A DNA stretch of 64,000 nt from Candidatus Wildermuthbacteria bacterium RIFOXYD1_FULL_50_12 (GTDB taxonomy: Bacteria; Patescibacteriota; Minisyncoccia; Minisyncoccales; UBA10102). Below the pieces are notes generated by a model. That model saw only the letters and a list, made by a program, of their open reading frames with translations, made no database searches and was not told the origin of the DNA. The stretch covers positions 155,476 to 219,475 of the forward strand of contig MHUO01000004.1 of the NCBI GenBank assembly GCA_001825035.1, given 5' to 3'. Positions 38,471 through 62,931 of this stretch are shown here, piece by piece. The first letter of the stretch is position 1, and every line of letters begins with the position of its first letter. A program made the translations under genes and the position numbers.

Positions 38471-38504
38471 TCCCTGTGGATGTAGAGATAAGATCAAGTA
38501 GATC

Positions 38505-39044
38505 ATGATTTATTTCATTACCGGCAACAAGAATAAACTCGAAGAGGTGAAAGCGGTATTGCCCGAAGTAGAACAATTAGATATTGACTTGCTTGAAATT
38601 CAAGAGATTGATTCAAAGGAAATCATAAAGAAGAAGTTGTCAGAAGCGTTCAATCGCGCCGAAGGAGAGTTTATTGTAGAGGATACATCTTTGCACCTGA
38701 ATTGTTTAAAAGGATTGCCAGGACCATTGGTAAAATGGTTTTTGAAAACGATCGGAAATGATGGTTTGGCTGGAATTGCTGAAAAATTAGGAAGCAGCAG
38801 GGCCGAAGCAAAAACGATTATTGGGTACGCGAAAAATCATGAAGAAATCTATTTTTTCGAGGGTGTAATAAAAGGGCAAATAGTAAAACCGCGGGGAGAA
38901 TCAGATTTCGGCTGGGATCCGATATTTTTACCAGATGGTCATGAAAAGACATTTGCTGAAATGGGCAGAGAAGAAAAGAATAAAATCAGCATGAGGAGGG
39001 AGGCACTAAATAAGCTAAGTGAATTCTTGCGGGCGCAGGAATAA
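38505..39044 (+). CDS. rdgB: Non-canonical purine NTP pyrophosphatase (Ham1/RdgB, ITPase)
   Basis: TGNKNKLEE and FGWDPIF motifs. Confidence 0.8.
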
Positions 39045-39057
39045 AAACAAAAAGGCC

Positions 39058-39474
39058 ATGGGAGATAACGGTAATCAATTTGTAGGGGTTCGGAAGAGCG
39101 AAAAGCACGGGAGGGGATTGTTTGCATTAAGAAATTTTGTAAAGGGAGAAATGATATATTCTTTTCCTTTGGAAAGAGTAGTAAGTCCACGTCAAATCCA
39201 GGGACTTTCGGAAGAAGAGCGAGATCATCTTGATAAGATAGGTGAAGATGAATATGAAATTATCCAGCCCCCTCTCTGTTATGTGAATCATTCTTGCGAT
39301 CCGGATATTTAGGAGGCGCTAGAAGGGAGGGCAAGAGTAGGATATGCTTTGCGAGATATAATGAGCGGAGAAGAGTTGACGGTGGATTATGATAAGACGG
39401 CGTATCTTGAGATGCCATTCGAATGCCACTGCGGCTCAAAAAACTGCAGAGGACTCGTGCGAGGTAAGAGGTAA
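39058..39474 (+). pseudogene. SET-domain protein gene interrupted by an in-frame TAG (nonsense or sequencing error)
   Basis: GRGLFA...NHSCDPDI, then TAG at 39313-39315, then in the same frame EALEGRARVGYALRDIMSGEELTVDYDK...CHCGSKNCRG (post-SET Cys cluster). TAG is a normal stop elsewhere in the window. Confidence 0.55.
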
Positions 39475-39487
39475 AAACAGAGAAAAT

Positions 39488-39916
39488 ATGGAAGGTAAAA
39501 AAGAGCAACAAAAAGTAGTGGTGGCGGCGTGCATTCGTGATGAAAAGGGAAAAATTCTTTTGGCAAAAAGAGTTGACTTTTTGAATCTTAAAGCAAATGG
39601 GAAGTGGGAGTTTCCGGGCGGGGAAGTAGAGTTTGGCGAATCGCCCGAAGCCGCACTTATGCGTGAATGTCGAGAGGAAATTGGGTGTACAATAGAAATT
39701 GTACGCTTGCTGCCATATCTTCATCAAAATGTGGGGCACCGGACAACGGGCGAGGTGGTGCAGGCGTTTGTGTCGTGTTTTGAGGCGAAAATTACGGAAG
39801 GGGAGCCAAAGCCCGCAGAACGGGAGATTTCCGAACTGCAATGGTATAAAAAAGAAGAGATACCTGCGCTGGACTCCCTCCCCGGCACCAACGAATTTAT
39901 AAATTTGCTTGAATAA
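39488..39916 (+). CDS. NUDIX hydrolase (MutT-like)
   Basis: NUDIX box GGEVEFGESPEAALMRECREEIG. Start at internal ATG (MEGKKEQ). Confidence 0.75.
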   Translation: MEGKKEQQKVVVAACIRDEKGKILLAKRVDFLNLKANGKWEFPGGEVEFGESPEAALMRECREEIGCTIEIVRLLPYLHQNVGHRTTGEVVQAFVSCFEAKITEGEPKPAEREISELQWYKKEEIPALDSLPGTNEFINLLE

Positions 39917-39921
39917 AAAAT

Positions 39922-40128
39922 ATGAGACAGAAAGGATTCGGATTAATTATGCTAATGATTGCTATGGCTATTATTGCCTTTCTCGTAGTGGGAGGGGTAT
40001 ATGTTTCTGGCGTCAGGAGGGAACGATCAGTCATCGAGACGGGGATTGATGCCACGCAGCAGATTGAAGATATCCAGAACATGCTTAACGCGCACGGCGA
40101 ACAGATAAAAACTGAATCACAGGAATAA
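39922..40128 (+). CDS. Small membrane protein with prepilin-like N-terminal hydrophobic helix
   Basis: QKGFGLIMLMIAMAIIAFLVV resembles a type IV pilin/pseudopilin N-terminus but lacks the canonical Glu5. Confidence 0.3.
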   Translation: MRQKGFGLIMLMIAMAIIAFLVVGGVYVSGVRRERSVIETGIDATQQIEDIQNMLNAHGEQIKTESQE

Positions 40129-40130
40129 TT

Positions 40131-40904
40131 ATGGACTACCAAAAAATTGTGTTCCCCGTATTGAGAGAGGCGGGGGAGGAGCTGAGGAAAGGTTTTGGGA
40201 AGGCCGAAATTATACAGGAGAAAGGCGATCTTGCGGTGGATGTGGTAACTGCGCTTGATAGGAAGACAGAAGAGTTTCTTGCAACAAAACTTCGCGCAGC
40301 AGATCCTTCCGCAGATTTTTATGGGGAAGAAAACGGTGGGCACGAGGATGGCGAGCGATTTTGGGTATGCGACCCCATAGACGGGACTGCGCATTTTATA
40401 CGAGGACTGCCTTTTTGTACCACCATGCTGTGCCTGATTGAAAATGGTCAGGTCGTATTTTCTGCGATTTATGATTTTGTGAAAGACGACATCTATTGGG
40501 CAGAAAAAGGGAAAGGCGCTTGGAGGAACGATGATCCAATTCACGTGAGCAAGCGCACCTTGCAACAGGCATATCTTTCGTTTGAAACGCATGAGGATAA
40601 TCCGCAGGATGCAGAAAAACTTCACGCATTGCGCAAACGATGTATTCTTGTGAATACGATAAGCGCCGGCTTTGAATACGCGATGGTAGCTTGTGGCAAA
40701 CTGGAAGGCAGGATTACGTTTGATCCGTATGGCAAAGTTTGGGATTATGCGTCCGGCCCTCTTTTGGTGGAAGAAGCGGGCGGGGTTGCGGTGAACATCG
40801 GGAAGGAAAGTTATGACTATCGCAATTTTGACGTTATCGCTACGAACCCCGTTATTTACAAAGAGCTCACCGAAGGAGAACACGCAATCTTTCCTATTCG
40901 ATAA
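40131..40904 (+). CDS. Inositol monophosphatase-family phosphatase (SuhB/CysQ-like)
   Basis: WVCDPIDGT and FYGEE motifs. Confidence 0.8.
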   Translation: MDYQKIVFPVLREAGEELRKGFGKAEIIQEKGDLAVDVVTALDRKTEEFLATKLRAADPSADFYGEENGGHEDGERFWVCDPIDGTAHFIRGLPFCTTMLCLIENGQVVFSAIYDFVKDDIYWAEKGKGAWRNDDPIHVSKRTLQQAYLSFETHEDNPQDAEKLHALRKRCILVNTISAGFEYAMVACGKLEGRITFDPYGKVWDYASGPLLVEEAGGVAVNIGKESYDYRNFDVIATNPVIYKELTEGEHAIFPIR

Positions 40905-40906
40905 AT

Positions 40907-41356
40907 ATGCCAAGCAATAAAGAACGACATCGAATTATTCCAGCCGCATATGTGATTTTCCGTGATGGGGATAAGATTTTATTGCAGAGGAGAATGAATA
41001 CGGGATATGAAGATGGAAATTACGGACTTGTCTCTGGACATGTGGAGCAGGGAGAATCGTACAAGGCAGCAATAGTTCGTGAGGCGAGAGAAGAAACAGG
41101 GATAGAGTTGCGGCAAGAAGATTTGAGATTTGTGCACTTCATGCATCGGAGCCAAAAAGATGTGTATAACGAAAGGGCAGATGTATTTTTTGTTGCAGAA
41201 CGCTGGGAGGGGGAGATTACGAACGCGGAACCTGAAAAGTGCGACGATTTGAGCTGGTTTGATAAAAACAATCTTCCAGAGAACCTCATTCCATATATTC
41301 GCGAAGCTTTGCGGTATATAGAGGAAGGTATAATGTACAGCGAATATGGCTGGTAA
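40907..41356 (+). CDS. NUDIX hydrolase
   Basis: NUDIX box SGHVEQGESYKAAIVREAREETGIE. Confidence 0.8.
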   Translation: MPSNKERHRIIPAAYVIFRDGDKILLQRRMNTGYEDGNYGLVSGHVEQGESYKAAIVREAREETGIELRQEDLRFVHFMHRSQKDVYNERADVFFVAERWEGEITNAEPEKCDDLSWFDKNNLPENLIPYIREALRYIEEGIMYSEYGW

Positions 41357-41362
41357 TTAGCA

Positions 41363-42361
41363 ATGATTTTTTCCATCACAAAACCAGATCCATTCAATAT
41401 TCTTGCTTCAACAAAGGGGGTCTTGGAGGAAGCAAAGTTTGTTGCCATTAACCAAAAGGCAGTTGAGAGCAATGTCACGCGCATTGGCGGGTATCTCAAG
41501 CAACATGCTGATTTCCCCGATTTTGGGCACCGACTTACGGGAAACTTTGAAGCCGATCTCCAATTGATTTTCTTTGAATCGATGATGGGTTTTTGCTTTT
41601 GGACGATTCCCGGAAAGCCCAAGTGGGGCATTGAAATGTCGGATGGCGAAAGGGTTGATGGATGGTACGGGGTGTGTGCGTCGTTTAAGCGCGCGTACGA
41701 TGAAGGCACACCCGTAGGCGATGCGAATTTTTTTGCGAAGGCAGATAGAAAAGATGTACAGAATATATTTCGTTCTGCAACTGGTGCTGAGATTCCATTG
41801 CTCGACGAGCGAGTCGCGATCCTCAATGAGAACGCGCGTGTTCTCAATGAGCATTTTGGCGGCAAGACGCTAAATCTTCTTGAGGCCGCCGATCGGGACG
41901 TAATAAAACTTCTTCATCTCTTGCTTCAATGTTTTCCATCGTATCGAGATGTTGCGACATACAATGCCCGTGAGGTTGTATTTCTTAAAATTGCCCATTT
42001 GCTTGCACTTGATTTGGAGTATCGATTGACTCCGCAGTCGCAACGACCGTTCTTGAAGAATTTTGATCAGTTGTGCGTGTTCGCCGACTATAAATTGCCG
42101 CAGCTATTGCGAGCTTTTGGCGTGTTAGAGTATAAGCAGTCGCTTGCCGATACGGTTGATTCTTATACAATCATTCCAAAAGGATCGGAACAGGAGGTTG
42201 AGATTCGATCTGGCGCGATATGGGGCGTGGAGCTTTTGCGGCAACAGCTTCCCGAGTATTCTTCTGTTCAGGTCGGCCACGTCATCTGGCTGTTGAGCCA
42301 GGATCAGGAATTGCAGTCCAAGATCAAACCTTATCATCGTACGCATACAACATTTTATTAA
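41363..42361 (+). CDS. Queuosine-salvage-like protein (DUF2419/Qng1-like); tentative
   Basis: 332 aa, soluble. FLKIAHLLALDL resembles the FxKRAQI region of DUF2419. Weak, composition-based call. Confidence 0.3.
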   Translation: MIFSITKPDPFNILASTKGVLEEAKFVAINQKAVESNVTRIGGYLKQHADFPDFGHRLTGNFEADLQLIFFESMMGFCFWTIPGKPKWGIEMSDGERVDGWYGVCASFKRAYDEGTPVGDANFFAKADRKDVQNIFRSATGAEIPLLDERVAILNENARVLNEHFGGKTLNLLEAADRDVIKLLHLLLQCFPSYRDVATYNAREVVFLKIAHLLALDLEYRLTPQSQRPFLKNFDQLCVFADYKLPQLLRAFGVLEYKQSLADTVDSYTIIPKGSEQEVEIRSGAIWGVELLRQQLPEYSSVQVGHVIWLLSQDQELQSKIKPYHRTHTTFY

Positions 42362-42384
42362 ATGGAAAACCAAAGTGCCTAAAT

Positions 42385-42918
42385 ATGCCAAAGAGATTGG
42401 GAGAGAAAGAAATCTTTAAATCGAGAATCTTTACCATTAAAGAAGCCGAGCTTGAGTTTGCATCGGGGAGAAAAGTAAAACATGAATTCCTTGATCTAGG
42501 AGATTCGGTGATGGTGGTTCCGATTGCGGAAGACGGAACATTGCTTCTCATAAATGAGTATCATACTGCAATCAACGAGTTTCAGCTTGGGCTTTGTAAG
42601 GGGGCCTTACACAAGGGGGAAGATCCAAGGGAACGAGCCAATACTGAATTGCAAGAAGAGGTTGGCCATAAGGCACAAAAGTTAGACGAGCTGATCGTGT
42701 TGAATGCATTCCCTGGTTATCAGACCAACAAAACGTTTGTGTATCTCGCAAGAGATTTGGTGAAAAGCAAGCTGGCGGGGGATGTAGATGAGGAAGAGCT
42801 TGAAGTTTTTCCATACCCATTTTTGGATTTCGAAAAACTTATTGAGGATGGAAGATTGAAAGAAGCAAGGGCGATTGCGGCGCTATATCTTGCAAAAAAA
42901 TTTCTCAATAATTCTTAA
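42385..42918 (+). CDS. NUDIX hydrolase, ADP-ribose pyrophosphatase-like
   Basis: IFKSRIFTIKEAELEFASGRKVKHEFLDLGDSVMVVPI is a NudF-like N-terminus. NUDIX box GLCKGALHKGEDPRERANTELQEEVG. Confidence 0.7.
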   Translation: MPKRLGEKEIFKSRIFTIKEAELEFASGRKVKHEFLDLGDSVMVVPIAEDGTLLLINEYHTAINEFQLGLCKGALHKGEDPRERANTELQEEVGHKAQKLDELIVLNAFPGYQTNKTFVYLARDLVKSKLAGDVDEEELEVFPYPFLDFEKLIEDGRLKEARAIAALYLAKKFLNNS

Positions 42919-42921
42919 TGT

Positions 42922-43394
42922 ATGTCACACATTCACGAACTTATCGATTGGACCGTAGTAGCTTATGTGGTGCATGGGGAGAAGGTTCTTATGGTATACC
43001 ATAGAGAACTTCAAAAGTGGTTGCCGTTGGGCGGGCACATTGAGTTAAATGAAGATCCCGACGAAGCGTTGATGCGTGAAGTGCAAGAGGAGAGCGGCAT
43101 TGAGGAGATAGAAGTGCTTGCCGCAAAACCTACAGTTGAAGGTGATACGAGCGAGCGCAAATTTCTATATACCCCTGCATATATGGATATCATAAGATCA
43201 ACGATCGACATAGGCACATTGGACTGGTATATTTTCTCCGCACGAGAACCGATGCGATTCGGCTCGCAGAGAGTGAGCATGAGGGAATCCGCTGGTTTAC
43301 TATAAAAGATTTAGAGAGACCCGAATTTCACATTGAACCTTCCATCAAATTTTACGCAAAAGAAGCCTTAACAAGGGCATATGACGACGATTGA
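42922..43394 (+). pseudogene. NUDIX hydrolase gene with an apparent frameshift near 43280-43300
   Basis: N-terminal frame carries the NUDIX box GGHIELNEDPDEALMREVQEESG and stops at 43305. A second frame continues as ...EHEGIRWFTIKDLERPEFHIEPSIKFYAKEALTRAYDDD* to about 43394. Confidence 0.5.
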
Positions 43395-43716
43395 AGATTT
43401 TGAAAAAGTGGATATACGGGTGGGGAATATAATTGAGGTGGAGGATTTCCCGGAAGCAAGGAAGCCGGCGTATAAACTCAAGATTGATTTTGGGCAGGAA
43501 GTTGGCGTGAAACAATCTTCTGCGCGGCTGGTAGATTTATACACAAAAGAAGAACTTAATGGAAAGTTAGTGTTGGGAGTGGTGAATTTTCCTCCGAGAC
43601 AAATCGGTCCATTTGTTTCTGAAGTTTTGACGCTCGGCGTTCCTGATGAAAACGGAAACGTAATTTTAGTGGTGCCAGACAAAGAAAATTCTCCGCTTGG
43701 GGGCAAACTATTTTGA
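43381..43716 (+). CDS. tRNA-binding domain protein (CsaA/Trbp111-like)
   Basis: VDIRVGNIIEVEDFPEARKPAYKLKIDFG...LNGKLVLGVVNFPPRQIG. Confidence 0.7.
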   Translation: MTTIEDFEKVDIRVGNIIEVEDFPEARKPAYKLKIDFGQEVGVKQSSARLVDLYTKEELNGKLVLGVVNFPPRQIGPFVSEVLTLGVPDENGNVILVVPDKENSPLGGKLF

Positions 43717-47183: not shown

Positions 47184-48239
47184 ATGGCTATTCCATACGA
47201 AAGATTAACTGCCGCCCTTGTCGCCGATTTGCATCCTCGGACGCAAGATGTGCTAATGAGGAGATTTGGGTTGCAAGCTGAGGAATCGGAAACGCTGGAG
47301 GCAATCGGTCAGAGCCACGGCATAACGAGAGAGCGGGTGCGCCAAATCGTGGAAGACGGTTTGGCTCAGGTGAAAGAGGCGGCTGCCCGCAGGAGGGAGC
47401 GAGAGAAGTTGGAGGAAATTTATGAGCAACTTGGCGCGATCCTTGGGAAGTCAGGTTATGTGAAACGGCAGGATCTTCTCGTGCGGGAAGCGGGAGCTCC
47501 GGAAGCCGCAAACTCCATCATTTTCCTTTTGCATTTGGGAGACAGGTTTTATAGGCACAAAGAAACCGAATACGCGCATCCGTTTTGGGCAAGCAAAAAA
47601 GAGCTCGTGGAAATCAGTCCTCGGCTTTTGGAAGCAATCTGCGCATATTTGCGAGAGCGGGGAGAGGTGCTTGAATTTGAGCATTTGGTGCAAGCGCATA
47701 GTTCCCATGATGGCGAGAAGCTTTCTCCGCGCACGTTAGCTTCCTTGCTTGAGATCTCCAAGTTCATCGGCAGGACGCACAACGGAAAATGGGGACTGCT
47801 GGAGTGGCCCGAAGTATACCCGAGGGGGATGCGCGATAAGGCCTATGTCGCGCTTTGCGACGCGGGCAAGCCCCTGCATTTTATTGAAGTGGCAAAACAC
47901 ATAGAGCAGTTGCAAGAATCGCTTGATGAGCAATTGGGCAATTGGAGGAAAAGGGCGGTGCTCCCCCAGACCGTTCACAACGAGCTCATCAAGGATCCCC
48001 GCTTTGTGCTTGTGGGAAGGGGAACATACGCGCTCCAGGATTGGGGATACAGGCCGGGAACCGTGAAAGATGTGATTATGAGCATTTTGCGGGAAAGCGG
48101 ACAGGCACTGCCCAAGGAAGAAATCATAGAGAAAACACTGAGCCAGCGCCAAGTAAAGGAGAGTACCATTCTCTTGGCTCTCCAGGACAAGACCTGCTTT
48201 GTCCGCGAAGGCGGCGGCTATATCTGCATTGGGGAATAG
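47184..48239 (+). CDS. Sigma-70 region 4 (HTH) domain-containing protein with C-terminal uncharacterised domain
   Basis: TLEAIGQSHGITRERVRQIVEDGLAQV matches sigma-70 region 4.2. Confidence 0.55.
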   Translation: MAIPYERLTAALVADLHPRTQDVLMRRFGLQAEESETLEAIGQSHGITRERVRQIVEDGLAQVKEAAARRREREKLEEIYEQLGAILGKSGYVKRQDLLVREAGAPEAANSIIFLLHLGDRFYRHKETEYAHPFWASKKELVEISPRLLEAICAYLRERGEVLEFEHLVQAHSSHDGEKLSPRTLASLLEISKFIGRTHNGKWGLLEWPEVYPRGMRDKAYVALCDAGKPLHFIEVAKHIEQLQESLDEQLGNWRKRAVLPQTVHNELIKDPRFVLVGRGTYALQDWGYRPGTVKDVIMSILRESGQALPKEEIIEKTLSQRQVKESTILLALQDKTCFVREGGGYICIGE

Positions 48240-48300
48240 GAAGCCCTGCGAAGAACAGGGCTTTATTTTTATAAGCGAGAAAGTGTAGTATAATAGGGAA

Positions 48301-49617
48301 ATGGAGACGATTTGGCAAATTTTCCTGCCAATTTTCCAATTTTTTTGGCAGTTTTTAAAAACGTGGTGGTGGGTGTTTGCTCCCTTTGTGCTTTTGTCTC
48401 AAGCCAAGTACTTTTGGCGTTGGTGGCGCACGTATCGGTTTGAACTGACTTTGAGAAGGATTGTGCTGGAGATTAAATTGCCTCCTGACGTGGAAAAGCC
48501 CATCAAAGCAATGGAGAGCGTGTTTGCGGGCTGGTGGCAGATACACGATCCCCCCAACTTCCGGGAAATATGGCTGGACGGAGAGTATCAGCTTGGATTC
48601 AGCTTGGAAGTCGTTTCCACCGAGGGCGCCGTGCATTTTTACATGCGCATACCCGACGAGTCGCGCAGGATTATGGAAGCCGCGCTCTACGCCCAGTTTC
48701 CGGACGCCGAGCTCATAGAGGTAGACGATTACACAAAAGCGGTTCCCCAGAACGTGCCCAATAAGGATTGGCGCATGTGGGGGGCAACTATTAAGCTTGC
48801 AAAGTCGGACGTTTATCCGCTTCGCACGTATAAACACTTTTTTGAAGAGCGGGAAGATATACGGCCGGAACAGCGGGTGGATCCGGTGGCTCAATTGGTG
48901 GAAGGAATGGCAAAGCTCGGCGAAGGAGAGCATTTGTGGCTGCAGTTTCTGCTGACTCCCCGCGCCCCCAACGAGACGGATTTTGTGGAGCGGGGCAAGG
49001 CAGAAGTTGATAAGCTCGTGCATCGCGTGGCCGAAACCGGAAAGAAACCCACCATCCCTATTTCCGAGGACATTCGCGCCGTGGGTCATATGCTCGCGAC
49101 CGGCGAGGATACCGAGCGGCAGATGGTCGGAGGAATAGAAGAGGAGCGGGGGTTAATGGCCCCCGAACTCCGCTTAACGACAGGGGAGCGGGAAGTGGTG
49201 TCTGCTATTGAAGAAAAAACCAGCAAACAAACTTTCAGGACGACCCTGCGATATATTTACCTTGCGAGAACCGAGAAATATCAAGGCGTTACTAAGGTAC
49301 TTCCGTTTCAGTACTTCCAGCAGTTCAACACGGCAAACCTCAATTTTATCCGAGCTCTGCAAACCACCAAGGTGTACACGGTAAGAACGTTTTTCTGGGA
49401 CGAACGGAGACGATACATCAGGCGGAGGCGTCTGTTTCGGCTGTACTGCTCGCGCGATAACTTCTACTGGCCCAGAGGAGGGGGGATGTTTATGATGACT
49501 ATAGACGAGCTGGCGACTATGTTGCATTTCCCGAGCAGGGGTGCGGTTCCTTCAGAAGCCGTGCCGCGCGTGGAGACCAAAAAAGGAGAGGCGCCTTCCG
49601 GATTGCCCTTTGAGTAA
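48301..49617 (+). CDS. Membrane protein (2 N-terminal TM helices plus large soluble domain), partner of the downstream ATPase
   Basis: IFLPIFQFFWQFLKTWWWVFAPFVLL hydrophobic N-terminus. No known catalytic motif. Confidence 0.4.
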   Translation: METIWQIFLPIFQFFWQFLKTWWWVFAPFVLLSQAKYFWRWWRTYRFELTLRRIVLEIKLPPDVEKPIKAMESVFAGWWQIHDPPNFREIWLDGEYQLGFSLEVVSTEGAVHFYMRIPDESRRIMEAALYAQFPDAELIEVDDYTKAVPQNVPNKDWRMWGATIKLAKSDVYPLRTYKHFFEEREDIRPEQRVDPVAQLVEGMAKLGEGEHLWLQFLLTPRAPNETDFVERGKAEVDKLVHRVAETGKKPTIPISEDIRAVGHMLATGEDTERQMVGGIEEERGLMAPELRLTTGEREVVSAIEEKTSKQTFRTTLRYIYLARTEKYQGVTKVLPFQYFQQFNTANLNFIRALQTTKVYTVRTFFWDERRRYIRRRRLFRLYCSRDNFYWPRGGGMFMMTIDELATMLHFPSRGAVPSEAVPRVETKKGEAPSGLPFE

Positions 49618-49623
49618 TGCGAT

Positions 49624-51261
49624 ATGGAAGAAATCAATTTTTTCGGAGAAACAAATTTTCGGAATATGCGGCGGAAATTCGGCATTAAGGTTGACGACCG
49701 GCGCCGCCATTTTTACGTGATTGGGAAAACCGGCATGGGCAAAACTGAAATGCTGAAAAACATGGCCGTACAGGATATAAAGTTGGGCCACGGAATCGGT
49801 TTTGTGGATCCGCACGGAGAAGCGGTGGAAGAACTTCTGGATTTCGTTCCCGAAGCGCGCGTGAAAGACGTTGTCTATTTTAATCCTGCGGATACCGAGC
49901 ATCCGATCGCTTTTAACGTCATGGAACAGGTGGATCCAGACAAGCGGCACATGGTGGCTTCAGGATTGATGTCGGTGTTCAAGAAAATTTGGCCCGACGT
50001 GTGGTCCGCCCGCATGGAGTATATTTTGAATAATGTGGTGCTTGCGCTCCTGGAGTATCCGGACTCCACGCTTTTGGGCATCAATCGAATGCTGGCCGAC
50101 CCCGAATACCGCCAGAAAGTGGTGGACTATGTGAAAGACCCCGTGGTAAAGACGTTTTGGTTGCAGGAATATGCGAGATACACCCAGCGTTACGAAGTGG
50201 AAGCAACGGCCGCCGTGCAGAATAAGGTTGGGCAGCTCACGTCCAACCCCTTAATCAGAAATATCGTAGGGCAGACGCGATCCTCCATTGATATGCGCAA
50301 GGTAATGGATGAAAAGAAAATTCTTCTCGTGAATATTTCAAAGGGACGCATCGGCGAAGATACCTCCCGACTTATCGGTGGGCTTTTGATTACCAAACTT
50401 CAGTTAGCCGCAATGTCTCGCGTGGATATTCCAGAAGAGGAACGAGAGGATTTCTTTCTGTACATTGACGAGTTTCAGCATTTTGCCACGGAGAGTTTCG
50501 TAAACATTCTCTCTGAAGCAAGGAAATACCGCCTTTCCTTAATTTTGAGCCATCAGTATATTGCCCAGCTTGGAGTAGGAACGGAGGCAAAGGTGAGAGA
50601 TGCGGTGTTTGGGAACGTGGGAACCATTGTGTCCTTTCGCATCGGAGCAGAGGATGCCGAGGCCTTAGAGAAAGAATTCTTCCCCGAGTTCACGGCAATT
50701 GACTTTATGAACCTCGGTAAATATACCATATATGTAAAACTGATGATTGAGGGGGTGGCATCTCGGCCCTTTTCCGCAAACACTCTTCCGCCACCTTCGC
50801 CGCTCGAACGTTCCTGGCGTCAAGAAGTCATTCAGTTTTCGCGGGAACAGTATGCGAGCGCGGCTTCCAAAGTAGAGCAAGGTATTATGGAATGGACTGG
50901 CGTGGGGGCGATGGGGGCGATGCCCGTTGCTCTTGCTTCAGTCCAGCCGCAGGTGCTGTACGATGCAAGATGCTCAAAGTGCGGTAAGGATACCAAGGTG
51001 GTATTTCCTCCCGACGGCAAGAGGCCGGTGTACTGCAAGTCCTGCCGGAAAAAATTGAAGCGGAAAGGAGAAAGCGATCGTCCGCGCACGCCCGAGGAAC
51101 AAGGAGTCAAGAAAAAGAGGGATACGCAAGGATTAAAGCAAGTGCTGCAGGAGGCCTTGCGCAAGGTCAATCAGGGCTCTCCAGCTTTGAATCTGAAAGA
51201 AGAACTCGGCGGCAAAGAAGGAGTATTAAAACCCGGGGAAACCGTGCGTTTTGACCAATGA
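49624..51261 (+). CDS. TraD/TrwB/VirD4-like (FtsK-HerA superfamily) P-loop ATPase with C-terminal zinc ribbon
   Basis: Walker A FYVIGKTGMGKT, Walker B LYIDEFQHFA, SHQYIAQL (TrwB/TraD-like), and C-terminal CSKCG...CKSC. Confidence 0.55.
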   Translation: MEEINFFGETNFRNMRRKFGIKVDDRRRHFYVIGKTGMGKTEMLKNMAVQDIKLGHGIGFVDPHGEAVEELLDFVPEARVKDVVYFNPADTEHPIAFNVMEQVDPDKRHMVASGLMSVFKKIWPDVWSARMEYILNNVVLALLEYPDSTLLGINRMLADPEYRQKVVDYVKDPVVKTFWLQEYARYTQRYEVEATAAVQNKVGQLTSNPLIRNIVGQTRSSIDMRKVMDEKKILLVNISKGRIGEDTSRLIGGLLITKLQLAAMSRVDIPEEEREDFFLYIDEFQHFATESFVNILSEARKYRLSLILSHQYIAQLGVGTEAKVRDAVFGNVGTIVSFRIGAEDAEALEKEFFPEFTAIDFMNLGKYTIYVKLMIEGVASRPFSANTLPPPSPLERSWRQEVIQFSREQYASAASKVEQGIMEWTGVGAMGAMPVALASVQPQVLYDARCSKCGKDTKVVFPPDGKRPVYCKSCRKKLKRKGESDRPRTPEEQGVKKKRDTQGLKQVLQEALRKVNQGSPALNLKEELGGKEGVLKPGETVRFDQ

Positions 51262-54002: not shown

Positions 54003-54338
54003 TTTCGTGTCGGAGGAAACCTATAAGCCGAATTCTGTCCTCCCGCTTTCGCGGAATGGGCAATCATCTATCTGTCTCGTACATTACTGCACGGATCAAG
54101 CGAGTTGTTTTTCACAGAAGCTCCGCATGAAAGCAGCTCTTCTGATCCACTCTTGCACTCTACACGGATTTAGCCGTTTCACCCCCGAAGTTGCCTTCGG
54201 GGCTCGTCTCTGTTCGCACCGCTCGCCTTACGGCGGCCGGGTGTTACCCGGAGTAGTTGATCCGCCAACTGGCGGAGAGTGTTCGGACTTTCCTCCCCGC
54301 CAACTGGCGGGGCAATTGCCCAGCTTCCTCCGACGCCG
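54003..54338 (-). ncRNA. rnpB: RNase P RNA (rnpB), bacterial type A-like
   Basis: The minus strand reads ...GGCGUCGGAGGAAGCUGGGCAAUUGCCCCGCCAGUUGGCGGGGAGGAAAGUCCGAAC... (P1, P2, P3 hairpin, CR-I GGAAAGUCCG) and ...GACAGAAUUCGGCUUAUAGGUUUCCUCCGAC (CR-V ACAGAAnnCGGCUUA, then the P1 3' strand). Ends are approximate. Confidence 0.75.
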
Positions 54339-54340
54339 TT

Positions 54341-54369
54341 ATTCTACCAACGTGCTTTGGATTTGTCAA
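54341..54369 (-). promoter_or_regulatory. Consensus promoter TTGACA-17-TAGAAT for rnpB (minus strand)
   Basis: Minus-strand TTGACA is the complement of 54364-54369, and TAGAAT the complement of 54341-54346. The predicted TSS falls at the start of the P1 5' strand. Confidence 0.6.
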
Positions 54370-54390
54370 GATGAGAAATTTGCGTATAAT
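54363..54390 (+). promoter_or_regulatory. Promoter TTGTCA-16-TATAAT for murJ (plus strand), sharing its -35 hexamer region with the rnpB promoter
   Basis: TTGTCA at 54363-54368, TATAAT at 54385-54390. ATG 54397 sits 7 nt downstream, so the mRNA would be leaderless. Confidence 0.55.
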
Positions 54391-54396
54391 AGACAG

Positions 54397-56040
54397 ATGA
54401 CTGTTTCTGCATTGCTCAACGGCAAAACCGGCACCATAGGGGCGGCGGCAGGTATTCTTTTTGTCTCTTCGCTCGTGAGCGGACTTTTGGGCTTTGCAAG
54501 GAACGGCTTGCTCTCATGGCGCTTCGGAGCCGGAGAAGCAACCGATATGTATTTCGCCGCTTTTCGCATTCCAGATTTCCTCTACGGAATACTCATTATG
54601 GGAGGCATTTCAGCGGTCTTTCTTCCGCTGTTTTCTGAGCGCATGGCGCAGGGCAGAGAGGAGGCGTGGAAGTTTGCGAGCAATCTTCTTAATATTATTA
54701 TTGGCTCATTGGCCGTGTTCGCCGCTTTGGTGTTTCTATTCGCGCCCCAACTCATCCCTCTTGTGGCTCCCGGATTCTCAGCCGCGCAAATTGAGACGAG
54801 CGCGAATCTTACGCGCCTTATGCTCTTGAGTCCCATTCTATTCGGAATATCTGCCGTGCTCTCCGGAGTCCTCCATTATTACCAGAGATTTTTCGCGTAT
54901 GCCTTGGCTCCGGTGCTGTACAACCTCGGCATCATTTTGGGCATTTTGTTTCTTGCTCCCTTATGGGGCATTTGGGGAGTCGCTGTCGGCGTGATTCTGG
55001 GGGCTCTGCTTCACGTGCTCATTCAGGCGCCGGTTGCCTGCAAGGAAGGGTTTTCGTGGCAGCCCCTGTGGAATCTCAAAGACGCCTCGGTGAGAAAAGC
55101 CGCCGTTCTTGCCTTTCCCCGCACTATTGCGACGGCCGCCTTCTACGTTAACATCATAGTGATGACGGCGCTTGCTTCCCTTATTGCAGAAGGAAGCATT
55201 ACCATATTTGAATACGCAAATCATATTCAGCAGCTGCCCGTGGGTTTGATTGGGGTGTCTTTTGCGCTCGCGGCCTTTCCCGCGCTCTCACGCTTTGCCG
55301 TAGAGCAGAATTCCGCGAAAATGCGCCAGGCATTTTCGCGGACGGCTTCTAACGTTTTGTTCTTTGTTTTGCCGTTATCTGCTCTCATATTTCTTTTGCG
55401 CGCACAAATAGTGCGCCTTATTTACGGAGCGGGACCGCACTTTGGCTGGGATGAAACGCGCCTTACCGCGGCGGCGCTCGGCATATTTGCTTTTGGCATT
55501 GTTTTTTACGCGCTCATTCCCTTGTTCACGCGCTTATTCTTTGCTTTGCAAGACACCAAAACCCCAACCTTTGCGAGCGTGTCTGCGGTTGTGTTAAACA
55601 TTGTCTCTGCTGTCTTCTTTATTGGCGCATTCGCTGCCCCGAACACGTTTTCGCAGTTCTTTGTTTCTGCTCTGCGGTTGGAAGGCATTGAAGATATACG
55701 CATTCTCGCTCTGCCCTTGGCTTTTGTGTTAGCCGGCATATTTCAGGCAAGCTTGCTTTTGTTGCTCCTTGCGCGCAAAACAAAAGGGGTAGGTAAAAAG
55801 GATTTTCTTTCCTCTGCGGCCAAAACGGCAATTGCAACCTTGGCTTCTGGCGTCGTGACCTACGGAATGTTGCAGTTGTACGGAAGGCCTTTTCCGTTGG
55901 AAACATACGCACGCGTGCTCACGCAATTTTTGCTCGCGGGAGCCATCGGCGCTCTTGCGTTTGTAGCTACCGCCTTTCTGCTCCGTTCCTCTGAAATACT
56001 TTCTCTTTTCGTTCGCTTCCGGTCCTTTCTTAAAAAGTAA
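54397..56040 (+). CDS. murJ: Lipid II flippase MurJ (MviN)
   Basis: About 14 TM helices. N-terminal GLLGFARNGLLSWRFGAGEATDMYFAAFRIPDFLYG is typical of MurJ. Start at internal ATG 54397; the track ORF starts at 54007 and overlaps rnpB. Confidence 0.8.
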   Translation: MTVSALLNGKTGTIGAAAGILFVSSLVSGLLGFARNGLLSWRFGAGEATDMYFAAFRIPDFLYGILIMGGISAVFLPLFSERMAQGREEAWKFASNLLNIIIGSLAVFAALVFLFAPQLIPLVAPGFSAAQIETSANLTRLMLLSPILFGISAVLSGVLHYYQRFFAYALAPVLYNLGIILGILFLAPLWGIWGVAVGVILGALLHVLIQAPVACKEGFSWQPLWNLKDASVRKAAVLAFPRTIATAAFYVNIIVMTALASLIAEGSITIFEYANHIQQLPVGLIGVSFALAAFPALSRFAVEQNSAKMRQAFSRTASNVLFFVLPLSALIFLLRAQIVRLIYGAGPHFGWDETRLTAAALGIFAFGIVFYALIPLFTRLFFALQDTKTPTFASVSAVVLNIVSAVFFIGAFAAPNTFSQFFVSALRLEGIEDIRILALPLAFVLAGIFQASLLLLLLARKTKGVGKKDFLSSAAKTAIATLASGVVTYGMLQLYGRPFPLETYARVLTQFLLAGAIGALAFVATAFLLRSSEILSLFVRFRSFLKK

Positions 56041-62751: not shown

Positions 62752-62825
62752 GCGGGATTCGTATAGTGGTAGTACGTAACCTTCCCAAGGTTGAAGCGCC
62801 GGTTCAATTCCGGTATCCCGCTCCA
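62752..62825 (+). tRNA. tRNA-Gly (anticodon CCC), CCA encoded
   Basis: Acceptor GCGGGAU/AUCCCGC, anticodon stem-loop UAACC-UUCCCAA-GGUUG, T-arm CGCCGGUUCAAUUCCGGU, 3' CCA. Confidence 0.8.
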
Positions 62826-62834
62826 GAGGGCGAC

Positions 62835-62906
62835 GCCGATGTAGCTCAGTGGCAGAGCAACTCTTTCGTAAAGAGTAGGCCGTCGGTTCAAATCCGACCA
62901 TCGGCT
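62835..62906 (+). tRNA. tRNA-Thr (anticodon CGU), CCA not encoded
   Basis: Acceptor GCCGAUG/CAUCGGC, D-arm GCUCAGUGGCAGAGC, anticodon loop UUCGUAA, T-arm GUCGGUUCAAAUCCGAC. Confidence 0.8.
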
Positions 62907-62931
62907 CCGTATCATTAGGTGTTCGGATATT

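What the first reader, a model, noticed from the sequence alone, without database searches (positions are those of the whole stretch)
48301..51261. Two-gene module: membrane protein plus TraD/VirD4/FtsK-HerA-like ATPase with a C-terminal zinc ribbon, embedded among housekeeping genes
The 545-aa ATPase has Walker A (GKTGMGKT), Walker B (LYIDEFQHF), a TrwB/TraD-like SHQYIAQL motif and a terminal CxxC...CxxC ribbon. The upstream 438-aa protein supplies the transmembrane anchor that coupling proteins normally carry in cis. No relaxase, VirB genes or integrase are nearby. A split coupling-protein-like DNA/substrate translocase in a chromosomal housekeeping context could serve DNA uptake, or an uncharacterised export or defence function.
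Basis: partly seen in the sequence, partly recalled or inferred. Interest (0 to 1): 0.55.

Follow-up and report, generated by a model that had tools for sequence, protein, structure and literature searches.

The report
Split VirD4-like translocase of CPR bacteria
Two adjacent genes of a Parcubacteria (CPR) genome encode the two halves of one conjugation-type 'coupling protein'-like pump, a membrane-anchored docking subunit and a motor ATPase with a zinc ribbon; the same unit is a single fused protein in other CPR bacteria and in Bacillus phages, and its family is known but its cargo is not.

Summary
ORFs 48301-49617 (438 aa) and 49624-51261 (545 aa) exist, lie 6 nt apart in the same frame, and carry the reported motifs. 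The ATPase is a VirD4/TrwB-type coupling-protein (T4CP) homologue by sequence and by predicted fold. It is not VirB4, FtsK or KaiC. The partner is Pfam DUF8128: an aromatic N-terminal membrane helix followed by a ~380-aa cytosolic domain. The only significant PDB fold matches of that domain are to VirB4. The pair is adjacent in 73 of 77 evaluable Paceibacteria loci. More decisively, both halves map collinearly onto single polypeptides: fused DUF8128+T4CP proteins in Berkelbacteria, Falkowbacteria, Saccharibacteria and Gottesmanbacteria, and phage family phrog_5156 (Bacillus phage G gp156, SPO1-like phages, TP-84). The window pair is therefore a lineage-specific split of one membrane-anchored translocase, with an added CxxC-x17-CxxC ribbon. 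A 2025 survey already reported VirD4-type homologues in 96% of Patescibacteria genomes, mostly far from virB4, with no known role. The N-terminal module, the gene fission and the phage link appear undescribed. Cargo and direction of transport remain unknown. Verdict: a new variant of a known kind, of moderate interest.

The parts
48240..48264 (+). Terminator-like hairpin with a T-run directly after the stop of the upstream Sigma70_r4/HARE-HTH gene; it probably marks the end of the preceding transcription unit
   Evidence: 9-pair stem, 5 GC pairs, tail ATTTTTAT; sequence
48289..48294 (+). TATAAT hexamer 6 nt upstream of the ATG; inferred -10 element, possibly giving a leaderless or very short-leader transcript for the DUF8128-ATPase unit
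   Evidence: read directly; inference only, no -35 was found by the scan
48301..49617 (+). DUF8128 (PF26449) subunit, 438 aa: the membrane-anchoring and docking half of the split translocase
   Evidence: collinear with the N-terminal half of fused proteins
48304..48450 (+). Aromatic hydrophobic N-terminal helices (aa 2-50, conserved KTWWW..LPF motif followed by a W/R-rich amphipathic helix): predicted membrane anchor with the globular domain in the cytoplasm
   Evidence: the equivalent position in fused homologues is a clear TM helix (KD 2.8-3.2)
49531..49614 (+). Conserved but disordered C-terminal tail (PRVExKKGEAPxGLPxE); it corresponds to the inter-domain linker of the fused proteins and so marks the fission point
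   Evidence: compare P0422 'GSKKGEPPANLPVKE...'
49624..51261 (+). VirD4/TrwB-type (T4CP-like) P-loop ATPase, 545 aa, with no transmembrane segment
49723..49746 (+). Walker A GKTGMGKT (aa 34-41)
50455..50472 (+). Walker B FLYIDE (aa 278-283)
   Evidence: aligned to TrwB LWLFIDE
50521..50571 (+). EARKYRLSLILSHQYIAQL (aa 300-316). It aligns to TrwB GRKAGLRVVAGLQSTSQL, the segment that in TrwB holds the arginine finger and the sensor glutamine (from my knowledge of TrwB)
   Evidence: alignment; R300, K301 and Q311 are invariant
50956..51054 (+). CxxC-x17-CxxC treble-clef zinc ribbon (aa 445-477; PF23477, TIGR04272)
51232..51252 (+). Conserved C-terminal motif PGETVRF, after a variable basic low-complexity linker

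Best explanation
The two genes encode the two halves of a single membrane-anchored VirD4/TrwB-type translocase (T4CP-like). Shown: the 545-aa protein is a catalytically intact T4CP-family P-loop ATPase with an all-alpha insertion. The 438-aa DUF8128 protein is its cognate N-terminal module. The two are one polypeptide in other CPR classes and in Bacillus/Geobacillus phages. In Paceibacteria the gene has split in the inter-domain linker, and the ATPase half carries a C-terminal zinc ribbon, a basic tail and a PGETxxF motif that the fused CPR forms examined lack. Inferred: the DUF8128 N-terminal hydrophobic helix inserts in the cytoplasmic membrane, and its cytosolic VirB4-NTD-like domain docks the ATPase. 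The ATPase assembles into a TrwB-like hexamer whose ATP hydrolysis threads a polymer through its central channel at the membrane. The zinc ribbon and basic tail recruit the substrate or a partner. My best guess for the cargo is nucleic acid, handed to or received from the Patescibacteria monoderm-type T4SS (VirB4/VirB3/VirB6) that is encoded elsewhere in the genome, rather than classical relaxase-dependent conjugation. Confidence is about 0.9 for 'split halves of one T4CP-like membrane motor' and about 0.4 for 'works with the T4SS on nucleic acid'. The figure given below is a blend of the two.
For: Family assignment: Pfam TrwB_AAD_bind, T4SS-DNA_transf and TraG-D_C all score above gathering thresholds. 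The profile search against PDB finds TrwB at 6.7e-7 and DotL at 1.6e-4, with no VirB4. hhalign against TrwB gives probability 94.9% and E 4e-8 over 264 columns, from Walker A to the sensor region, whereas against VirB4/TrwK only the P-loop aligns. The AF2 model's best folds are DotL 7.5e-11, TrwB ~1e-8 (TM 0.6 on the target) and Cagbeta, ahead of HerA and VirB4. Catalytic motifs are invariant.

One functional unit: the ATPase lies immediately downstream on the same strand in 73 of 77 evaluable DUF8128 loci from GTDB species genomes. Phage G gp156 (825 aa) aligns at residues 33-316 to the DUF8128 profile (probability 97.2%, E 3.4e-11) and at residues 372-789 to the ATPase profile (probability 99.9%, E 6e-33). 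Both window proteins hit the same PHROG, phrog_5156, collinearly: positions 75-300 at E 7e-7 and positions 408-806 at E 1.6e-61. Dozens of CPR proteins of 725-990 aa carry PF26449 together with PF10412/PF02534/PF12696. By BLASTP, the window DUF8128 matches P0422 residues 26-381 (5.5e-29) and the window ATPase matches P0422 residues 390-801 (52% identity, 5e-158).

Membrane anchor.

VirB4-like N-domain: the only PDB fold hits with E<1e-3 are R388 TrwK/VirB4 chains.

T4SS link: one fused homologue lies beside a PrgI/VirB4/M23 cluster near dnaN. PMC12102498 reports VirD4-type T4CPs in 2,918 of 3,035 Patescibacteria genomes and VirB4 in 2,417.
Against: There is no T4SS gene in the window, in the 80 related loci, or in 5 of the 6 fused-gene contexts examined. 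The published survey found only 148 of 5,713 T4CP genes near virB4. It found T4CP in more genomes than VirB4, and it noted that the t4cp of Ca. [quoted passage not shown] I did not show that this t4cp is the DUF8128 type. Phage homologues occur in phages with no VirB4, so the unit can presumably act without a T4SS. The VirB4-NTD resemblance rests on Foldseek alone (TM 0.31-0.37), and no profile similarity to TrwK, TrsD or TrsE was found. Hexamer formation, the contact between the two halves, and the substrate were not and could not be tested here. The ATPase model has low confidence for residues 312-381. The hydrophobic N-terminus fails a Kyte-Doolittle threshold.
Confidence: 0.55

Rival explanations
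1. An autonomous, T4SS-independent DNA pump for nucleic-acid import. The DUF8128-anchored hexamer pulls incoming DNA, for example through ComEC, into the cytoplasm. It would feed nucleotide scavenging and transformation in organisms that cannot make nucleotides.
For: The ATPase family translocates DNA. A zinc ribbon and basic tail are present. T4CP homologues are near-universal in Patescibacteria whereas relaxases are rare (109) and most T4CP genes are far from virB4. Phage homologues function without a VirB4. Neighbours are often DNA-metabolism genes: RNase H and a DHH phosphoesterase here, dnaX or gyrBA next to fused forms. There is an archaeal precedent of VirB4-like ATPases (CedB/CedD) that import DNA.
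Against: No com gene is linked in any of the ~90 loci examined. The similarity to CedD is confined to the P-loop: 24 bits against a cutoff of 600. The gene order around the pair is conserved as a block in Paceibacteria, so the neighbours carry little functional information. There is no experimental link.
Confidence: 0.2
2. A housekeeping chromosome-handling translocase (FtsK-like) acting in segregation, or at the division septum or replication site.
For: Sequence conservation is very high, 62-86% identity among the 120 best hits across Parcubacteria lineages. The gene has a chromosomal housekeeping context and overlaps PGK by 4 nt. Replication genes lie next to fused forms. Cell-division genes lie about 10 kb downstream.
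Against: There is no FtsK_SpoIIIE Pfam hit, and no FtsK structure appears among the 50 best fold matches. Saccharibacteria TM7x has an annotated ftsK of its own, and Saccharibacteria also carry the fused protein. The t4cp of Southlakia is reported as non-essential. A housekeeping segregation role does not explain the phage homologues.
Confidence: 0.1
3. An anti-phage or anti-plasmid defence ATPase (MADS Mad8-like or HerA-like) with a membrane partner.
For: In PADLOC the ATPase matches mad8 at 7.8e-15 and has weak HerA hits. Defence HerA complexes appear among the fold matches.
Against: DUF8128 has no PADLOC hit. No methyltransferase, nuclease, Sir2 or other effector is adjacent in the window or in related loci. 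The gene shows stable synteny and near-universal distribution, not island-like variability. There is no GC anomaly at the locus. Phages themselves encode the fused form.
Confidence: 0.05
4. The two genes are neighbours only through inherited gene order and have unrelated functions.
For: The whole block SecD-SecF-SigR4/HARE-DUF8128-ATPase-PGK-DHH-RNaseH is syntenic across Paceibacteria, so adjacency alone is weak evidence.
Against: Both halves occur as single polypeptides, in the same N-to-C order, in four other CPR lineages and in phages. The spacer is 6 nt.
Confidence: 0.02

Closest known systems
Type IV coupling proteins VirD4/TrwB/TraD/DotL (Pfam PF02534, PF10412, PF12696)
   Same: The P-loop nucleotide-binding domain with Walker A/B and the arginine/glutamine segment. 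An all-alpha insertion between Walker A and B. These are the best sequence and fold matches. Membrane attachment is through an N-terminal element.
   Different: There is no cis two-helix TMD; the anchor is a separate DUF8128 protein with a large cytosolic domain. A C-terminal CxxC-x17-CxxC ribbon replaces the usual acidic or TraM-binding tails. No relaxase or T4SS is linked. All NCBIfam T4CP equivalogs score far below cutoff. Similarity to the Firmicutes pGO1 T4CP is weaker than to TrwB.
VirB4 (TrwK) with VirB3: the T4SS ATPase whose N-terminal domain ties the motor to the inner-membrane complex
   Same: The overall architecture of membrane hairpin, ~350-400-aa N-domain and FtsK/HerA-superfamily ATPase. 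The DUF8128 model's only significant PDB matches are TrwK chains. Split and fused VirB3/VirB4 arrangements also exist in T4SSs (my own knowledge).
   Different: There is no profile-level similarity of DUF8128 to TrwK, TrsD or TrsE. The ATPase domain is VirD4-type, not VirB4-type. TM-scores are low (0.31-0.37).
phrog_5156: unknown-function proteins of Bacillus phage G (gp156), SPO1-like Herelleviridae (SP8, CampHawk, CP-51, JL, Shanette) and Geobacillus phages TP-84 and D6E
   Same: Full-length collinear homology to the window pair. Pfam's own PF26449 is recorded on gp156.
   Different: It is a single polypeptide. gp156 has no N-terminal TM helix; it has an internal hydrophobic stretch at aa 181-207 instead. 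It lacks the zinc ribbon. It sits in an early-gene context in TP-84. Identity to the CPR ATPase is about 27%.
Fused DUF8128-T4CP proteins of other Patescibacteria (for example P0422 Berkelbacteria, P0428 Falkowbacteria, P0449 Saccharibacteria, P0463/P0484 Gottesmanbacteria-type)
   Same: Same two modules in the same order. The ATPase domains are 40-52% identical to the window ATPase. Most have an N-terminal TM helix.
   Different: They are one gene rather than two. They have no zinc ribbon. The Microgenomatia-type proteins lack the TM helix, and one sits next to a T4SS cluster.
Archaeal Ced DNA-import ATPases CedB/CedD
   Same: They are membrane-associated VirB4/VirD4-superfamily ATPases that move DNA without relaxase-based conjugation. 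The VirB4 N-domain features are distributed over separate proteins.
   Different: Only the P-loop region matches (NF053655, 24 bits against a cutoff of 600). They occur in a different domain of life, and no CedA-like channel gene is present here.

Membership tests
Type IV coupling protein (VirD4/TrwB/TraD) | Scores above Pfam gathering thresholds for T4SS-DNA_transf, TrwB_AAD_bind and TraG-D_C | tested here: met
   33.5 bits against 20.1; 40.6 against 20.5; 23.1 against 22
Type IV coupling protein (VirD4/TrwB/TraD) | Intact Walker A, Walker B and the arginine/glutamine segment aligned to TrwB | tested here: met
Type IV coupling protein (VirD4/TrwB/TraD) | TrwB-like fold, including the all-alpha domain inserted in the nucleotide-binding domain | tested here: met
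   Helices at aa 105-215 lie between the core strands. Best folds are DotL, TrwB and Cagbeta. The model pLDDT is only 71.9.
Type IV coupling protein (VirD4/TrwB/TraD) | N-terminal transmembrane domain in the same polypeptide | tested here: not met
   The ATPase has no hydrophobic segment at its N-terminus. A non-homologous anchor is supplied by the DUF8128 protein.
Type IV coupling protein (VirD4/TrwB/TraD) | Genetic linkage to a relaxase and/or a VirB4-containing T4SS | tested here: not met
   None is present in the window or within 7 kb beyond its 3' end or in the 80 related loci. One of six fused homologues is next to VirB4/PrgI.
Type IV coupling protein (VirD4/TrwB/TraD) | Recruits substrates to a T4SS channel | not testable with these tools
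   Needs genetics or biochemistry
Named T4CP equivalogs (SXT TraD, F TraD, CD1115, MobC) | Scores above the NCBIfam cutoff | tested here: not met
   51.7 against 366; 16.6 against 521; 42.6 against 250; 18.1 against 900
DUF8128-T4CP fused family (PF26449 + PF10412; phrog_5156) | Both modules present, collinear, in N-to-C order | tested here: met
   here they are two ORFs 6 nt apart
VirB4 | VirB4-type ATPase domain (CagE_TrbE_VirB, AAA_10) | tested here: not met
   There is no such Pfam hit. hhalign to TrwK aligns the P-loop only. The VirB4 fold match is weaker than the T4CP matches.
VirB4 | VirB4 N-terminal domain | tested here: inconclusive
   Foldseek against TrwK gives E 1.5e-4 to 5e-3, probability 0.98-1.0 and TM 0.30-0.37. 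There is no sequence-profile signal. The region of TrwK that aligned is not reported by the tool.
FtsK/SpoIIIE | FtsK_SpoIIIE motor domain and gamma domain | tested here: not met
   No Pfam or NCBIfam hit; no FtsK among the 50 best fold matches
HerA (DUF87) | DUF87 scoring above threshold; HAS-barrel; NurA or effector partner | tested here: not met
   DUF87 scores 22.2 against a threshold of 23.2 and covers only aa 22-94. The HerA fold ranks below the T4CPs. No partner gene is present.
MADS defence system (Mad8) | Mad8-like ATPase embedded in a multigene mad locus | tested here: not met
   The ATPase hits mad8 at 7.8e-15, but no other defence component is adjacent.
Ced DNA-import system (CedD) | Scores above the NF053655 cutoff | tested here: not met
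   24.3 bits against 600, covering aa 8-75 only

The most novel reading that the evidence does not exclude
DUF8128-T4CP may be a third, previously unrecognised lineage of the VirB4/VirD4 ATPase clade. It would pair a VirB4-like N-terminal docking domain with a VirD4-like motor and work on its own, without a T4SS, as a membrane DNA pump. On this reading it is near-universal in CPR bacteria, where it would be the motor for importing host or environmental nucleic acid, and it has been borrowed by (or from) large Bacillus phages for genome entry or host takeover.
Probability: 0.18. Interest if true: 0.8.

Novelty: new variant of a known kind. Interest (0 to 1): 0.5.

Why it matters
CPR/Patescibacteria make up a large share of bacterial diversity. 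They cannot synthesise nucleotides and live off host cells. A 2025 survey found VirD4-type ATPases in 96% of their genomes but could not assign them a role, because almost none sit near a secretion system. This analysis gives the window's member of that group, and the related CPR proteins examined here, a defined architecture. It has a dedicated DUF8128 N-terminal module with a possibly VirB4-like fold, it can be split into two genes, and in Paceibacteria it carries a zinc ribbon. The analysis also links these proteins to an unknown-function protein conserved in SPO1-like and jumbo Bacillus phages. That link makes the question testable in tractable systems: B. subtilis phages, competent Saccharibacteria and cultured Minisyncoccus. 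It also bears on how the two T4SS ATPases VirB4 and VirD4 diverged.

Tried and rejected
- DUF8128 gave no hit in the local Pfam-A copy, in NCBIfam or in PADLOC, and none in the PDB by sequence profile. PF26449 is known only from precomputed annotations.
- hhalign of the DUF8128 profile against R388 TrwK, pGO1 TrsD, pGO1 TrsE and phage G gp155 found nothing. Against the SP8 906-aa protein the result was only a weak, non-significant collinear alignment.
- tblastn of DUF8128 against GenBank phages found no match. The IMG/VR viral-contig scan with the DUF8128 profile found no relatives.
- I tested whether a VirB4-like and T4CP-like gene pair is a general phage module. It is not: the gp155 type occurs with gp156 only in phage G.
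- I considered whether the upstream Sigma70_r4/HARE-HTH gene is part of the unit. It is conserved next to the pair in 72 of 80 Paceibacteria loci. However, it is separated from the pair by a terminator-like hairpin and is absent next to the fused forms. I treat it as a neighbour, not a component.
- The FtsK-replacement idea is weakened, because TM7x has an annotated ftsK.
- Literature searches for DUF8128, PF26449, 'TrwB_AAD_bind + CPR' and 'Bacillus phage + VirD4' returned nothing relevant.
- Accession BR000038 is not in the collection. The look-up of window:71-1060 is not on record.
- A complex prediction of the two proteins was not possible with the tools available.


Full report
**Observation**

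The window carries two same-strand, same-frame ORFs at 48301-49617 (438 aa) and 49624-51261 (545 aa), separated by 6 nt. The ATPase stop overlaps the start of the phosphoglycerate kinase gene (51258). A terminator-like hairpin (48240-48264) follows the upstream gene. A TATAAT hexamer (48289-48294) lies 6 nt before the first ATG. The pair therefore probably starts its own transcription unit; this is an inference.
- Walker A GKTGMGKT at aa 34-41
- Walker B FLYIDE at aa 278-283
- SHQY at aa 309
- CSKC-x17-CKSC at aa 450-474

These motifs are invariant in 38 homologues. The ATPase is 100% identical to a protein of Parcubacteria group bacterium GW2011_GWA2_50_10, so the window comes from a CPR/Patescibacteria genome.

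The surroundings are housekeeping genes: Maf, DUF1614, SecD, SecF and a Sigma70_r4+HARE-HTH protein upstream; PGK, a DHH phosphoesterase, RNase H, RNase P RNA, MurJ, a P-type ATPase and LepA downstream. Further upstream lie a glycan-biosynthesis cluster and SecA. Just beyond the window are DivIC, FtsEX and FtsZ. There is no relaxase, VirB4 or integrase, and no GC anomaly at the locus.

**What the ATPase is**

Pfam places it above gathering thresholds in TrwB_AAD_bind, T4SS-DNA_transf and TraG-D_C, and in the treble-clef zinc-finger family PF23477. NCBIfam gives only sub-threshold hits to named TraD/VirD4 equivalogs, plus the CxxC-x17-CxxC domain.

Sequence and fold comparisons agree:
- A profile of 38 homologues finds TrwB (6.7e-7) and DotL (1.6e-4) in the PDB, and no VirB4.
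- hhalign against R388 TrwB gives 94.9% probability over 264 columns, running from Walker A through the arginine/glutamine segment.
- Against R388 TrwK/VirB4, only the P-loop aligns.
- The AF2 model (pLDDT 71.9) has an all-alpha block between the core strands. It matches DotL, TrwB and Cagbeta best, then HerA, then VirB4.

The protein is therefore a VirD4/TrwB-type T4CP homologue. It has no transmembrane segment, and it has a C-terminal extension: helices, a zinc ribbon, a variable basic linker and a conserved PGETxxF end.

**What the partner is**

Its homologues are annotated PF26449 (DUF8128). The local Pfam copy, NCBIfam, PADLOC and the PDB sequence search give nothing.

An exhaustive profile search finds 2,836 cluster representatives, 939 of them below 1e-30.

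The AF2 model is good (pLDDT 83.5, pTM 0.78). It shows N-terminal helices 2-31 and 33-50, then alpha/beta domains, a flexible region at about aa 245-290, and a disordered but conserved tail.

The N-terminus is Trp/Phe-rich. It is strongly hydrophobic on the GES and Wimley-White scales but not on Kyte-Doolittle. In fused homologues the same position is an unambiguous TM helix.

Against the PDB, the only matches below 1e-3 are R388 TrwK/VirB4 chains (E 1.5e-4, probability 1.0, TM 0.31-0.37). The next unrelated folds start at E 0.04. No profile similarity to TrwK, TrsD or TrsE was found. I therefore treat a VirB4-N-terminal-domain relationship as tentative.

**Are the two a unit?**

A scan of one genome per GTDB species found 548 relatives of the DUF8128 protein. 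In 80 fetched loci, the ATPase lies directly downstream on the same strand in 73 of 77 evaluable cases. The exceptions are:
- a frameshift-like case
- two loci where other genes follow, one of them a Fic-type insertion
- Minisyncoccus archaeiphilus, where a 1,164-aa pilin-like gene is inserted between the two genes

Because the whole block SecDF-SigR4/HARE-DUF8128-ATPase-PGK-DHH-RNaseH is syntenic in this class, adjacency alone is weak evidence.

The decisive evidence is fusion:
- The DUF8128 model hits Bacillus phage G gp156 (2.2e-16), a phage JL protein of 913 aa and a phage Slash protein in BFVD.
- The window ATPase hits the same gp156 by tblastn (5e-37), along with 80 other records, mostly Bacillus and Geobacillus phages.
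- gp156 aligns at residues 33-316 to the DUF8128 profile (97.2%, 3.4e-11) and at residues 372-789 to the ATPase profile (99.9%, 6e-33).
- Both window proteins hit phrog_5156 collinearly.
- A search with gp156 returned dozens of CPR proteins of 725-990 aa that carry PF26449 together with T4CP domains. They come from Berkelbacteria, Falkowbacteria, Saccharibacteria and Gottesmanbacteria.
- By BLASTP, the window proteins map to P0422 residues 26-381 and 390-801.
- The P0422 linker (…GSKKGEPPANLPVKE…TIFGKTDYRH…FGIKIPDRRYHMYAIGKTGTGKST) matches the window DUF8128 tail followed by the ATPase N-terminus.

The Paceibacteria pair is therefore a fission of one gene in its inter-domain linker. The fused CPR forms I read lack the zinc ribbon. 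A 748-aa ATPase-only relative has it.

**How it probably works**

Shown: a catalytically intact T4CP-type motor and a cognate membrane/docking half.

Inferred: DUF8128 tethers a TrwB-like hexamer to the cytoplasmic face of the membrane, and ATP hydrolysis drives a polymer through the ring. The zinc ribbon and basic tail recruit cargo or a partner.

For cargo and context I favour cooperation in trans with the Patescibacteria monoderm-type T4SS. The family is the T4SS coupling family. One fused homologue sits beside a PrgI/VirB4/M23 cluster at dnaN. Both systems are widespread in the phylum.

The evidence against this reading is substantial. Most T4CP genes are far from virB4, they occur in more genomes than VirB4, and the t4cp of Southlakia is reported to be dispensable while T4SS genes are essential. 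I did not show that this t4cp is the DUF8128 type. Phage homologues lack VirB4 partners, except in phage G.

The rivals are:
- an autonomous DNA-import motor, consistent with the rarity of relaxases, the phage homologues and the archaeal Ced precedent, but with no com linkage
- an FtsK-like housekeeping role, weakened by the presence of ftsK in TM7x
- defence, supported only by a mad8 hit, with no system context and stable synteny

**Comparison with what is known**

PMC12102498 (2025) reported 5,713 VirD4-type homologues in 2,918 of 3,035 Patescibacteria genomes. Only 148 of these lie near virB4, and relaxases are rare. The authors suggested possible exaptation. The ATPase as a class is therefore known.

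I found no paper that mentions DUF8128 or PF26449. The following appear undescribed in the searchable literature:
- the split-versus-fused architecture
- the zinc-ribbon variant
- the VirB4-like fold of the N-module
- the homology to phrog_5156 of SPO1-like phages, phage G and TP-84

**Verdict**

The function is still open. I rate this a new variant of a known kind, with interest about 0.5.

Noticed in passing
window 54008-54331 (-): A bacterial class A RNase P RNA (131 bits) lies under the 5' part of the mechanical ORF 54007-56040. The real MurJ start must be further downstream, and gene callers disagree on it (products of 677, 637 and 547 aa).
   Followed up: partly
window 1-26500: A large surface-glycan cluster with a nonulosonic-acid-type branch: NeuB, a CMP-transferase, SIS, DegT aminotransferases, several glycosyl- and methyltransferases, a split transketolase and a Wzx-like flippase. 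GC is 0.44-0.46 here against about 0.50 further on. This is notable for a reduced CPR genome.
   Followed up: partly
window 38500-43700: A run of nucleotide-sanitising and salvage genes: Ham1, five NUDIX paralogues, an inositol monophosphatase-like gene, Q_salvage and a tRNA_bind protein, just upstream of Maf.
   Followed up: no
window 47184-48239 (+): A protein with Sigma70 region 4 (aa 14-65) and a HARE-HTH domain (aa 218-287). It is conserved immediately upstream of the pair in 72 of 80 Paceibacteria loci but is absent next to fused forms. It has a weak PADLOC hit to the MzaA C-terminus (5.5e-6). Its function is unknown.
   Followed up: partly
L050 7363-10857 (Minisyncoccus archaeiphilus PMX.108 chromosome): In this cultured parasite of a methanogen, a 1,164-aa protein with a type IV pilin N-terminus (FTLIELLVIIAIIAILAA) and a large Ser/Gly-rich ectodomain is inserted between the DUF8128 gene and the ATPase gene.
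   Followed up: no
L092 7519-7998; L094 7519-7998; L096 1063-1542; L091 7651-7995; L095 7641-7997: Each fused DUF8128-T4CP gene in ABY1-type and Saccharibacteria genomes is preceded, at a gap of 2 to 7 nt, by a small soluble ORF with no Pfam hit. The ORF has a disordered N-terminus and a helical C-terminus (…DADL[IV]EKEWV…ADYLKKRYNKD… in the two Saccharibacteria proteins read). It may be an additional subunit. The fused gene is followed by dnaX in three loci. In the two Saccharibacteria loci gyrB-gyrA follow, directly in one and after two opposite-strand genes in the other.
   Followed up: partly
L093 500-10200: A CPR T4SS cluster lies beside dnaN: a PrgI-like gene, VirB4 split into 387- and 231-aa ORFs (a frameshift or assembly error), a 431-aa gene of unknown function and an M23 peptidase. 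It is divergently adjacent to a TM-less fused DUF8128-T4CP. IS200-like Y1 transposase fragments are nearby.
   Followed up: no
L087 3223-4872 (Bacillus phage G gp155): A VirB4-like ATPase (P-loop_TraG, AAA_10) sits directly upstream of gp156. Its PHROG (phrog_2666) is labelled 'terminase large subunit', which looks doubtful. Its relatives are mostly in unannotated human-gut phage contigs and in Streptococcus phages, where the gene is annotated TrsE-like.
   Followed up: partly
L089 5514-8053 (Geobacillus phage TP-84): The TP-84 phrog_5156-type homologue (754 aa) lies in a block of small early genes between the lysis and recombination/replication modules. It overlaps an upstream 'putative membrane protein' gene, which may be an anchor supplied in trans, as in the CPR split.
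   Followed up: no
window 1-64000: Nearly all genes are on the + strand, and GC skew is positive almost throughout, with cumulative skew rising to 4.7. The window therefore lies on one leading-strand replichore. tRNA-Gly(CCC) and tRNA-Thr(CGT) lie at 62752-62908.
   Followed up: no
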